From NCBI GenBank assembly GCA_944390685.1, contig CALXQL010000016.1:17408-81407 (forward strand): 64,000 bases of DNA, read 5' to 3'. This DNA is from an uncultured Alphaproteobacteria bacterium. GTDB lineage: Bacteria; Pseudomonadota; Alphaproteobacteria; Rs-D84; CACZYB01. Below the pieces are notes generated by a model that saw nothing but the letters and a program-made list of their open reading frames with translations, made no database searches and had not been told where the DNA came from. Shown piece by piece: positions 17,215 through 18,214 of the stretch. Numbering within the stretch: the first letter of the stretch is position 1; each line of letters begins with the position of its first letter. Position numbers and translations under genes: made by a program.

Positions 17215-18214
17215 ATGAGAAGAACAATATCACGAATAAGTCTATTAACGATGTTATCATTATTAACAGCATGTGGTGGAGGAAATGTAGCCGAAAACTT
17301 GCCAAATCTACCGGGGGGGGGGAACGGAAATAGAACCTAAACCAGAACCAGAACCGGAAGAATTAACATTTGATAAAATATTCCCTAATAAAGATGCTCT
17401 TAGTGAGATGACTTTTGTTGATAATACTTATTTTTCTGAGAATAATAAATTTGAAATAGTAAATAACAATAATGAAGAAGAATTAAATATTTCTTTTGGT
17501 GGTGGCGAAGCTGCATTATTCTCTTTCCCTTTAAGTACTTTTTCTAAAACAGATGATTTTTATACTGCTCAATCAGAATGGATTTATAAAGAGGGTGAAT
17601 ATGGAGCAAATAATACCCTTGATTTATATGTAGTTAATGAGGATAAAAGAATTAATCTTTCTTATGGTGAATTTGGTATGATGTCTCAGCTTACTGAGTT
17701 TTTTTCACCAGATCCTGAAAGTAATCAGTCTACAAATGAACAACCTTTGCCATTTGCTTTATATAATAAAAATTATATAAAGGATATAGCTAGTGTGGAT
17801 ACAGAAATGAATTTTACAGGTAAAACTATTATTCTTCCATCACTTACAGATCGTAATACTGAGTTAACTTATAATTTAACAGGTCCAATGTTGGGAGATG
17901 TAAATCTTACTATAAATGATGGGGGAAAATATGATTTAACTATGACTTTTGATCATTTTTATACAATAAATACAGATGGAACAGGATTTACTTTATCAGA
18001 TGGTGGTAAATTATCTGATGATTTAGAAACAAAATTATCATTTGTTAAAGAAAACGATACATATGAAAATCCTGTTGATATTGATATGATATTATTAGGT
18101 GATAAAAATATAGAAGAAGTAGTTGGAACGGCATCTTTTTCTACCAGTAATAATGTAGTAGGGGAAAATAATGTTTTGAATATTTACTCTTCCTTTGGTG
18201 CGGTGCGTAAATAA
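17215..18214 (+). CDS. surface-lipoprotein family member 2, phase-variable. It is out of frame in this sequence at a G10 tract: the signal-peptide ORF from 17215 stops at 17338 and the mature domain resumes in the +1 frame (track ORF 17408..18214).
   Basis: The lipobox MRRTISRISLLTMLSLLTACGGG is followed by a G10 run at 17313-17322. Removing one G joins it in frame to the ORF 17408..18214, which carries the family motifs (YDLTMTFDHFYTIN, KLSDDLETKL, IEEVVG, FGAVRK). Confidence 0.65.
17313..17322 (+). repeat. homopolymeric G10 tract (slipped-strand phase-variation switch) inside the lipoprotein gene
   Basis: Counted directly from the sequence: ccg then 10 G then aac. Confidence 0.9.

What the first reader, a model, noticed from the sequence alone, without database searches (positions are those of the whole stretch)
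17215..18214. Lipoprotein gene split by a G10 homopolymer directly after the lipobox; loss of one G restores the full gene
The ATG at 17215 encodes a lipoprotein signal peptide (…LLTACGGG) and runs into a G10 tract (17313-17322), after which the frame terminates at 17338. The 269-codon ORF 17408..18214, which carries the paralog-family motifs, lies in the +1 frame. By hand translation, 9 G (or 12 G) gives one continuous ORF: …NLPGGG-TEIEPKPEPEPEELTFDKIFPNKDAL-SEMTFVDN…. Homopolymeric tracts of this length are the classic slipped-strand contingency switch, so this copy is an OFF-phase variant rather than a dead gene.
Basis: seen in the sequence. Interest (0 to 1): 0.8.

Follow-up and report, generated by a model that had tools for sequence, protein, structure and literature searches.

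The report
Poly-G switch in surface lipoprotein gene
A run of ten G's interrupts a surface-lipoprotein gene in an uncultured gut bacterium, most likely a reversible on/off switch of the kind known from Neisseria hpuA, caught here in the off state.

Summary
ATG 17215 opens a lipoprotein signal peptide (Cys codon 17272-17274). G10 lies at 17313-17322 and frame 0 stops at 17338-17340. The +1 frame is open from 17315 to 18214, and G9 or G12 gives one 332/333-aa precursor. [quoted passage not shown] A Slam gene (49100-50491) sits next to a paralogue (ATG 50703) that is split at the same position by G7. The gene is not dead. Five diverged tract-bearing copies keep 264-299 codons open after the tract, and the linker after the tract has dN about 0. 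The tract uses the rarest Gly and Pro codons. One low-coverage contig from another sample carries the same allele in frame (GCGGGGGGG, 9 nt). All eight other tract observations (six distinct loci or strains) are 3n+1 and so off: G10 in three diverged alleles at this locus and in an extra paralogue, G7 at the Slam-adjacent copy. No pure-tract length polymorphism was seen. Best reading: a slipped-strand contingency switch caught OFF, a new member of a known kind (hpuA-like). Minor rival: programmed recoding on a conserved 3n+1 tract.

The parts
17013..17165 (+). Conserved upstream element shared by all family copies. It ends in a near-consensus sigma-70 promoter: TTGATA (17137-17142), 17-nt spacer, TG-extended TATAAT (17160-17165).
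   Evidence: Alignment A1. The 31-mer TCAAAGTATAAATATATAATATCACGATTCG occurs 5 times in the window against 0 expected. The promoter scan scores 11/12.
17200..17206 (+). Shine-Dalgarno sequence AAGGAGG, 8 nt before the ATG.
   Evidence: Read directly from the sequence. It is conserved in all five tract-bearing copies.
17215..17274 (+). Signal peptide II: MRRTISRISLLTMLSLLTAC, with lipobox LTAC and the Cys codon at 17272-17274.
   Evidence: The lipobox was identified by pattern only; no signal-peptide predictor was run.
17313..17322 (+). G10 homopolymer, the frameshifting tract. Lengths of 3n (9, 12) are in frame; 10 is OFF.
17338..17340 (+). Premature TAA stop of the 41-aa frame-0 product made in the OFF state.
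17315..18214 (+). +1-frame ORF for the mature lipoprotein: an EPKP/PEPE linker, a variable handle and a C-terminal 8-stranded barrel ending in SSFGAVRK. The stop codon is at 18212-18214.
18231..18255 (+). Intrinsic terminator-like hairpin followed by a T run, between this gene and the convergent RND pump gene.
16015..16980 (+). Intact paralogue (321 aa, lipobox LLSGC). The homologous LPGGGG is written cca ggt ggg ggc ggt, so there is no homopolymer.
49100..50491 (+). Slam (surface lipoprotein assembly modulator) gene.
   Evidence: Pfam PF04575 SlipAM, E 2.8e-30, 106 bits against a cut-off of 22, plus TPR_Slam. The same annotation appears in L090.
50703..51678 (+). Slam-adjacent paralogue split at the homologous position by G7 (50801-50807). 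The leader stops at 50823-50825 and the +1 frame is open from 50803 to 51678. G6 or G9 would be in frame.
   Evidence: G7 is also present in L089 and L090.
53667..54557 (-). Intact paralogue (296 aa, lipobox LLASC) without a G tract. It has the same upstream element (54582-54734).

Best explanation
The gene 17215-18214 encodes a Slam-dependent surface lipoprotein with a TbpB/HpuA/hemophilin-type handle and an 8-stranded barrel. It belongs to a small, species-restricted paralogue family in an uncultured, low-G+C, animal-gut bacterium. A subfamily of these genes shares a nearly identical 5' cassette: a strong promoter, a Shine-Dalgarno sequence, the signal peptide and lipobox, a poly-G tract and a Pro/Glu/Lys linker. 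This cassette is fused to diverged mature domains. The poly-G tract encodes the Gly residues of the flexible tether. It most likely acts as a slipped-strand-mispairing contingency switch. Tract lengths of 3n (9, 12) join the signal peptide to the mature domain (ON). Any other length stops translation 5 codons after the tract and leaves only a 41-aa pre-lipopeptide (OFF). This window carries G10, which is OFF and one deletion away from ON. The Slam-adjacent paralogue (G7) is also OFF. Shown here: the anatomy, the fold, the Slam linkage, that the downstream frame is under selection, and that an in-frame variant of the same allele exists elsewhere. Inferred: that the tract changes length at high frequency during replication, and that the predominance of OFF reflects selection (for example host antibody pressure) or mutational bias towards G10.
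Against: No length polymorphism of a pure tract was observed. G10 occurs in three diverged alleles of this locus (window, L001b, L002; dS 0.3-0.5 in the variable part) and in an extra paralogue in two samples (L001a, L093). G7 occurs in three samples of the Slam-adjacent copy. Every one is 3n+1. No full-length ON protein with this leader exists among 5.8 billion clustered proteins or in the exhaustive HMM search. The only ON variant comes from a 2.9x-coverage contig. It differs by 5 clustered changes within 26 nt and has an interrupted tract, so it could be a gene-conversion product or partly read error rather than a simple slippage event. dN/dS of 0.6-1.3 in the mature domain is compatible with diversifying selection but also with relaxed constraint. 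G7 is short for efficient slippage. Several of the samples carry near-identical strains (99.97-99.99%), so the census has few independent points.
Confidence: 0.7

Rival explanations
1. Programmed recoding. The 3n+1 tract is the normal, conserved state. Full-length lipoprotein is made from it at a set low level, either by RNA-polymerase slippage that loses one G in the transcript or by +1 ribosomal frameshifting on the run of rare GGG codons. Either route yields exactly the G9 product (...LPGGGTEIEP...). DNA-level switching would then be secondary or absent.
For: All eight pure tracts seen are 3n+1: G10 in five observations (four distinct loci or strains) and G7 in three (one locus). This includes three diverged alleles of the same locus and two paralogues that differ by exactly 3 G. 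The linker directly after the tract is under strong purifying selection in the +1 frame, so the frame junction is used. GGG is a rare codon here (9.8% of Gly), and a G run lets a P-site tRNA-Gly re-pair perfectly after a +1 slip (inference). No ON-phase protein is present in very large databases.
Against: The number of independent observations is small, and the shared 5' cassette is homogenised among copies (89-98% identity), so G10 may simply be copied along with it. An in-frame allele exists (L095), which a recoding-dependent design would not need. There is no stimulatory element next to the tract: no stop or known hungry codon immediately after it, and no obvious downstream hairpin was looked for or seen. 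Documented bacterial transcriptional slippage concerns runs of A or T (title of Wagner et al. 1990, cited in PMC1088944). Efficient slippage on G runs is not established (own knowledge). A bias towards G9-G10 plus selection for OFF would give the same picture.
Confidence: 0.12
2. Decaying pseudogenes. The tract-bearing copies were inactivated by a frameshift and are drifting. The homopolymer is an accident of Gly-linker coding that was expanded by slippage.
For: All database copies are out of frame. dN/dS is 0.6-1.3 across the mature domain. The family has intact members that could supply the function (16015-16980 and 53667-54557).
Against: Five copies diverged to dS 0.3-1.1 have no stop codon and no out-of-frame indel in 264-299 codons after the tract. 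At about 8% stop frequency per random codon, the chance of one such ORF staying open is about 1e-11 (my arithmetic from the base counts). The linker has dN about 0. Structural positions are invariant across tract-bearing and intact paralogues: F71, P72, F76, Y117, F212-D213, F215-Y216, G262, E267-E268. The promoter, Shine-Dalgarno sequence and signal peptide are the best-conserved parts. An in-frame allele exists.
Confidence: 0.07
3. Sequencing or assembly artefact. The true tract is G9 (ON), and Illumina assemblies over-call one G.
For: G tracts are troublesome for Illumina chemistry, and database tract lengths can differ from the real population (PMC9187656). All available data are metagenome assemblies, some at about 3-4x coverage.
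Against: G10 was called identically in three separate assemblies, at least two of which used different assemblers: a k87-named contig (L002/L093) and a scaffold-named one (L001), plus the NCBI MAG of the window. G7 was called identically in three assemblies. A systematic +1 error at both G6 and G9 in every case is unlikely.
Confidence: 0.04

Closest known systems
Neisseria meningitidis / N. gonorrhoeae hpuA (HpuAB haemoglobin-haptoglobin receptor lipoprotein)
   Different: There is no detectable sequence similarity: no Pfam or NCBIfam hit and 12-14% identity in the structural alignment. No TonB-dependent receptor partner gene is adjacent, so the ligand is unknown. hpuA tracts range from G4 to G19 among 34 isolates with about 65% ON (PMC3786947). 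Here only G10 and G7 were seen, and all were OFF apart from one interrupted 9-nt variant. The host is a 29% G+C uncultured gut bacterium, not a Neisseria.
Slam-dependent hemophores (hemophilin / HphA of Haemophilus haemolyticus, Acinetobacter baumannii, Vibrio harveyi)
Bifidobacterium breve sortase-dependent pilus genes (bbr_0113a/b, bbr_1889a/b) with an intragenic G tract
   Same: This is a gut commensal in which a G10-G12 tract separates the ORF carrying the secretion signal from the ORF carrying the rest of a surface protein. Reference assemblies show the OFF frame. Populations are mixtures of tract lengths, and the ON length is enriched in vivo (PMC9187656).
   Different: The organism is Gram-positive and high in G+C, and the protein class (pilins) is unrelated. 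In B. breve the switch sits in the first gene of an operon; here the unit is monocistronic.
Multigene surface-lipoprotein families with a shared 5' expression cassette and a repeat switch (for example Neisseria opa with CTCTT repeats in the signal-peptide region, Haemophilus hgp with CCAA repeats, Mycoplasma vlp/vsp)
   Same: Several paralogues share a conserved promoter and leader that carries the repeat, joined to diverged mature domains. This arrangement allows independent ON/OFF switching of each copy. The comparison rests on own knowledge and was not tested here.
   Different: The repeat types and protein folds differ. Independent switching of the copies has not been shown here.

Membership tests
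Slam-dependent surface lipoproteins (TbpB-like SLPs) | N-terminal signal peptide II with a lipobox cysteine | tested here: met
   The leader MRRTISRISLLTMLSLLTA-C has basic residues, a hydrophobic core and an L-T-A-C lipobox. This was judged by pattern only; no predictor was run.
Slam-dependent surface lipoproteins (TbpB-like SLPs) | C-terminal eight-stranded beta-barrel preceded by a beta-rich handle domain | tested here: met
Slam-dependent surface lipoproteins (TbpB-like SLPs) | Genetic linkage to a Slam (DUF560/SlipAM) gene | tested here: met
   Slam is at 49100-50491 (PF04575, E 2.8e-30). It lies 212 nt upstream of the G7 paralogue. The gene in question is 32 kb away in the same window, so for that gene the linkage holds through the family, not by adjacency.
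Slam-dependent surface lipoproteins (TbpB-like SLPs) | Slam-dependent display on the cell surface | not testable with these tools
   This needs co-expression of the G9 allele with the Slam gene in E. coli, followed by protease-shaving or antibody assays.
Slam-dependent surface lipoproteins (TbpB-like SLPs) | Sequence membership in a curated family (TbpB_B_D, GNA1870-related and similar) | tested here: not met
   There is no Pfam or NCBIfam hit. Ten of the 22 distant HMM relatives were scanned (P0009-P0018); none has an SLP-family Pfam domain, and the only hit is a sub-threshold ZapB match. Known SLPs also share no sequence similarity with one another (PMC5449769), so this feature is not decisive.
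Simple-sequence-repeat contingency (phase-variable) loci | A homopolymer of 7 or more inside the ORF or promoter whose length sets expression, and which is over-represented against base composition | tested here: met
   G10 is expected 0.03 times per shuffle. The codon-usage probability is 2e-4. Frame logic was verified for G8 to G12.
Simple-sequence-repeat contingency (phase-variable) loci | Tract length differs between strains or within populations, with both ON and OFF states found | tested here: inconclusive
   One ON variant has an effective length of 9 and is interrupted (L095, 2.9x coverage). All 8 other observations are G10 or G7 and are OFF.
Simple-sequence-repeat contingency (phase-variable) loci | The gene is kept functional despite frequent OFF states | tested here: met
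   The downstream frame is open in 5 diverged copies. The linker has dN about 0. Structural positions are invariant.
Simple-sequence-repeat contingency (phase-variable) loci | Measured high-frequency reversible switching of the phenotype | not testable with these tools
   This needs culture work or deep UMI-tagged amplicon sequencing.
Programmed frameshift / transcriptional slippage genes | Out-of-frame arrangement conserved across diverged orthologues | tested here: inconclusive
   All 8 pure tracts are 3n+1. However, the copies share a homogenised cassette, the number of independent lineages is small, and one in-frame allele exists.
Programmed frameshift / transcriptional slippage genes | Full-length product made from the out-of-frame template | not testable with these tools
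   This needs a comparison of RNA with DNA tract lengths, or reporter assays.

The most novel reading that the evidence does not exclude
The tract is held at 3n+1 (G10 or G7) in every diverged allele and paralogue because that is the working state. The surface lipoprotein would then be expressed at a set low level by RNA-polymerase slippage or by +1 ribosomal frameshifting on a run of rare GGG codons. This would be a recoding device on a G homopolymer shared by a whole family of Slam substrates, possibly layered on top of DNA-level switching.
Probability: 0.12. Interest if true: 0.7.

Novelty: new member of a known kind. Interest (0 to 1): 0.4.

Why it matters
If the reading is right, Slam-dependent surface lipoproteins and their hpuA-style poly-G switches are not confined to the classical Neisseria, Moraxella and Pasteurellaceae pathogens. 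They would also occur in an uncultured, AT-rich animal-gut bacterium, as a small multigene family with a shared switchable 5' cassette and fast-diverging mature domains. That points to host-driven antigenic or functional variation in a commensal. It also gives annotators a concrete rule: in this lineage, a short ORF (about 40 aa) followed by a 235-268 aa ORF is one switchable gene, not two hypothetical proteins. The uniform 3n+1 state is a small open question that a comparison of RNA with DNA tract lengths could settle.

Tried and rejected
(1) I tested whether the downstream ORF has its own start and signal peptide. It does not. The +1 frame upstream of the tract is closed by TAG at the only ATG. 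The first start is ATG 17408, which is missing in L002 (ATA), and the conserved linker lies upstream of it. (2) The ENA protein P0002 appears to start upstream of the tract in the +1 frame, but it reads a TAG as Q and does not translate from its own contig. It is a gene-calling artefact, not an alternative start. (3) I searched for more alleles. An exact 31-mer from the promoter element gave 0 hits in genome contigs. Two leader/linker patterns gave 0 hits in JGI metagenome contigs. The family profile found only 5-6 proteins, all from this species. (4) Look-ups through neighbouring genes (MerR, UDG, AcrB, the 321-aa paralogue, the 259-aa ORF, both leaders and a 67-aa ORF) gave only a few contigs that cross a tract. 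Assemblies break in the repeated promoter/leader and near 17630-17640. (5) The LeuS scan for taxonomy found only one near relative, at 81% identity (MAG Mgla_MAG_18-bin_5). The organism's class is undetermined. The gene order plsX-fabH-ihfA-merR suggests Alphaproteobacteria, but that rests on own knowledge only. (6) No Rfam family lies in or near the leader. (7) No mismatch-repair gene is in the window (and ORF list), so nothing can be said about MMR status. (8) Literature searches for the sample and MAG identifiers found nothing.

Full report
OBSERVATION. The finding is accurate.
- The window has ATG at 17215 behind a strong Shine-Dalgarno sequence (AAGGAGG, 17200-17206).
- The leader is MRRTISRISLLTMLSLLTAC, with an L-T-A-C lipobox and the Cys codon at 17272-17274.
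- A run of exactly ten G lies at 17313-17322, and frame 0 ends at TAA 17338-17340 after 41 codons.
- ORF 17408..18214 lies in the +1 frame, and that frame is already open from 17315.
- Replacing the tract in silico with G9 gives an uninterrupted 332-aa precursor, and G12 gives 333 aa. G8, G10 and G11 stop within a few codons.
- One correction: the tract lies 13 codons after the lipobox cysteine (C-GGGNVAENLPNLP-GGG), not directly after it.

IS IT MORE THAN CHANCE? Yes.
- The window is 28.7% G+C, and G10 is the only G or C run of 8 or more in 64 kb. G10 is expected 0.03 times per dinucleotide-preserving shuffle.
- In 17,250 codons of the other genes, GGG is 9.8% of Gly codons and CCG is 4.6% of Pro codons. 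No GGG-GGG dicodon occurs. The chance that P-G-G-G is written CCG GGG GGG GGR is about 2e-4.
- The intact neighbouring paralogue writes the homologous LPGGGG as cca ggt ggg ggc ggt.
- The only other G run of 7 or more in the window (G7, 50801-50807) sits at exactly the homologous position of another paralogue, which it also splits.

WHAT THE PROTEIN IS. There is no Pfam or NCBIfam hit.
- The window also encodes a Slam at 49100-50491 (PF04575, E 2.8e-30, plus the TPR_Slam domain). It lies 212 nt upstream of the G7 paralogue.
- Lipobox, handle plus 8-stranded barrel, and Slam linkage are the features that define the Slam-dependent SLP class (PMC5449769).
- No TonB-dependent receptor is adjacent, and the structural scores do not single out one SLP type. 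The ligand is unknown.

THE FAMILY AND ITS 5' CASSETTE. The window holds four paralogues:
- 16015-16980 (intact, 321 aa);
- 17215-18214 (G10);
- 50703-51678 (G7);
- 54557-53667 on the minus strand (intact, 296 aa).

All four are preceded by the same element of about 150 nt. A 31-mer from it occurs five times in the window against 0 expected. The element ends in a near-consensus promoter, TTGATA-17-TATAAT with a TG extension (17137-17165). The tract-bearing subfamily further shares the 5'UTR, signal peptide, tract and an EPKP/PEPE linker at 89-98% nucleotide identity. The mature domains have only 36-52% amino-acid identity to this gene. Terminator-like hairpins at 16987-17004 and 18231-18255 make the G10 gene monocistronic. 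The family is very rare. An exhaustive HMM search of 1.84 billion representatives found six close members, all from this species, plus 22 distant proteins; the ten of these I scanned (P0009-P0018) have no SLP-family Pfam domain.

NOT A DEAD GENE.
- Five tract-bearing copies are available: the two in the window, L001a and L001b from a strain 98-99% identical in the flanking genes, and L002 from a third sample. All keep 264-299 codons open after the tract. From the base counts, about 8% of random codons would be stops.
- Every indel after the tract is a multiple of 3.
- The 35 alignment columns directly after the tract (GGGTEIEPKP...EELTFDKIFPNKDAL) have dN 0-0.015 against dS 0.06-0.20 in the +1 frame.
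- This stretch lies upstream of the first possible internal start (ATG 17408, which is ATA in L002). The +1 frame upstream of the tract is closed by a TAG.
- The linker can therefore only be translated as a continuation of the signal peptide.
- The mature domain has dN/dS of 0.6-1.3. That fits a surface antigen under diversifying selection but does not prove it. Structural positions are invariant across all seven family members.

DOES THE TRACT VARY? This is where the evidence is mixed. I reached related DNA through neighbouring genes and family proteins.

| Locus / allele | Source | Tract | Frame |
|---|---|---|---|
| acrB-adjacent, window allele | window | G10 | OFF |
| acrB-adjacent, L001b | ERZ16268197 | G10 | OFF |
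| acrB-adjacent, L002 | ERZ17292904 | G10 | OFF |
| extra paralogue, L001a | ERZ16268197 | G10 | OFF |
| extra paralogue, L093 | ERZ17292904 | G10 | OFF |
| Slam-adjacent copy | window | G7 | OFF |
| Slam-adjacent copy, L089 | ERZ28614080 | G7 | OFF |
| Slam-adjacent copy, L090 | ERZ24773515 | G7 | OFF |
| acrB-adjacent, window allele (L095) | ERZ24773515 | GCGGGGGGG (9 nt) | ON |

- All eight pure tracts are 3n+1 and so OFF. The L089 and L090 strains are 99.97-99.99% identical to the window, so they are not independent lineages.
- No full-length ON protein with this leader exists in the 5.8-billion-protein collection.
- The one exception is L095, a 1,790-bp contig at 2.9x coverage, 99.7% identical to window 15838-17628. 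It carries the same allele with ...CTTACCAACTCTACCGCGGGGGGGAACAG.... The tract region is 9 nt long (G C G7), and the gene is open from the ATG through 137 codons to the contig end.
- Five of its six differences from the window cluster within 17301-17326.
- One of those differences (AACGG to AACAG) is the state of the other cassettes, and L002 also has substitutions in the same 12 nt. I therefore read L095 as a real allele, probably a short gene-conversion patch. Read error at this coverage cannot be excluded.

MECHANISM. The best-supported reading (confidence 0.7) is a slipped-strand contingency switch.
- The tract encodes the Gly tether of a surface lipoprotein. A length of 3n is ON. The present G10 is OFF, one deletion from ON.
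- In the OFF state the cell would make only a 41-aa pre-lipopeptide.
- The anatomy is the same as Neisseria hpuA: a Slam2-adjacent, single-lobe SLP with a poly-G in the ORF (PMC3786947, PMC5449769).
- It also resembles the signal-peptide/body split of the Bifidobacterium breve pilin genes. There, reference genomes show OFF, populations are length mixtures, and ON is enriched in the gut (PMC9187656).
- The predominance of OFF could reflect host antibody pressure, or a mutational optimum near G9-G10 with ON counter-selected. Both are inferences.

RIVALS.
(a) Programmed recoding on a conserved 3n+1 tract, either by transcriptional loss of one G or by a +1 ribosomal slip on rare GGG codons. Both give the G9 product. 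The uniform 3n+1 state and the selected linker favour it. Against it stand the homogenised cassette, the small number of independent lineages, the in-frame L095 allele and the lack of a stimulator. Confidence 0.12.
(b) Pseudogenes. The maintained frames and linker selection argue against this. Confidence 0.07.
(c) Homopolymer mis-calling. Identical calls in several separate assemblies argue against this. Confidence 0.04.

NOVELTY AND VERDICT. This is a new member of a known kind: an hpuA-type poly-G phase-variable Slam substrate. What is new is the setting and the arrangement:
- an uncultured 29% G+C animal-gut bacterium whose nearest genome hit is a MAG at 81% LeuS identity;
- a species-restricted, sequence-orphan SLP family;
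- a shared switchable 5' cassette on several diverged genes;
- the unexplained uniformity of the 3n+1 state.

'OFF copy, not dead gene' is well supported. 'Actively switching' is inferred and awaits read-level data.

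Noticed in passing
window 4627-11924: A 7.3-kb block is present in the window and partly covered by L084, which starts at window 9683 so the 4627 boundary is unseen there. It is absent from the strain of L001, which is 98-99% identical in the flanks. It encodes a phosphomannomutase-like protein, GDP-mannose 4,6-dehydratase, an epimerase/reductase, two GT8 glycosyltransferases and a flavin NAD_binding_8 protein. Its end abuts tRNA-Arg (11949-12025). This looks like a strain-variable LPS/LOS or capsule glycosylation island.
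   Followed up: partly
window 12204-12558: A tandem repeat of a 139-bp unit (2.6 copies, 91% matches) starts inside the 3' end of tRNA-Leu(GAG) (12135-12219). It looks like reiterated attachment-site or tRNA-end copies. Copy number seems to differ in L001 and L084.
   Followed up: partly
window 53564-53662 (-) and 51704-51770 (+): These are orphan copies of the family's upstream element. One, with 1 mismatch in the 31-mer, lies directly after the 296-aa paralogue with no gene behind it. The other is a 67-nt first part (terminator hairpin plus cacttaaaaagtg...) after the G7 paralogue, abutting tRNA-Ser (51785-51874). They may be remnants of lost cassettes, or the element may double as a terminator/promoter module.
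   Followed up: no
window about 17628-17640: Contigs from two separate samples end at the same point inside the G10 gene. L095 ends at 17628. L098 and L099, coming from the acrB side, end about 576 nt into the gene. This suggests that co-existing alleles of the 5' (handle) half are present in those populations and break the assembly graph.
   Followed up: no
L001 7522-8461 (also L093 3570-4509): The related strain has one more tract-bearing paralogue (41-aa leader plus a 242-aa called ORF, G10), inserted between the 61-aa ORF and the 321-aa paralogue. The window lacks it. Cassette number at this locus is therefore strain-variable.
   Followed up: partly
L002 231-1082 (protein P0002): The ENA gene call starts at an ATG in the +1 frame upstream of the tract and reads the following TAG as Q (MQPKTCRIYRGGG...). 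The look-up tool reports that the locus does not translate to the protein. This is a gene-calling artefact that hides the frameshift.
   Followed up: yes
window 32856-32868: The sequence GGGGGGTGGGGGG (two G6 runs separated by a T) lies in the intergenic region between the divergent transketolase gene (30756-32738, minus strand) and ORF 33233-33949. This is unusual for a 29% G+C genome. It may be a second, promoter-located repeat.
   Followed up: no
window 15659-15844: A 61-aa ORF overlaps the merR stop by one base. It is called in every related contig (L001, L084-L088) and has no family hit. It sits immediately before the first lipoprotein cassette.
   Followed up: no
window 17215-17340 and 50703-50825: In the OFF state both split genes would still produce a 40-41-aa prolipoprotein. 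After signal peptidase II cleavage this would leave a lipopeptide of about 21-22 aa, CGGGN(V/L)AENLPNLPGG(G)N(G/R)NRT. Its out-of-frame tail is nearly the same in the two copies. Whether it is stable or has any role is unknown.
   Followed up: no
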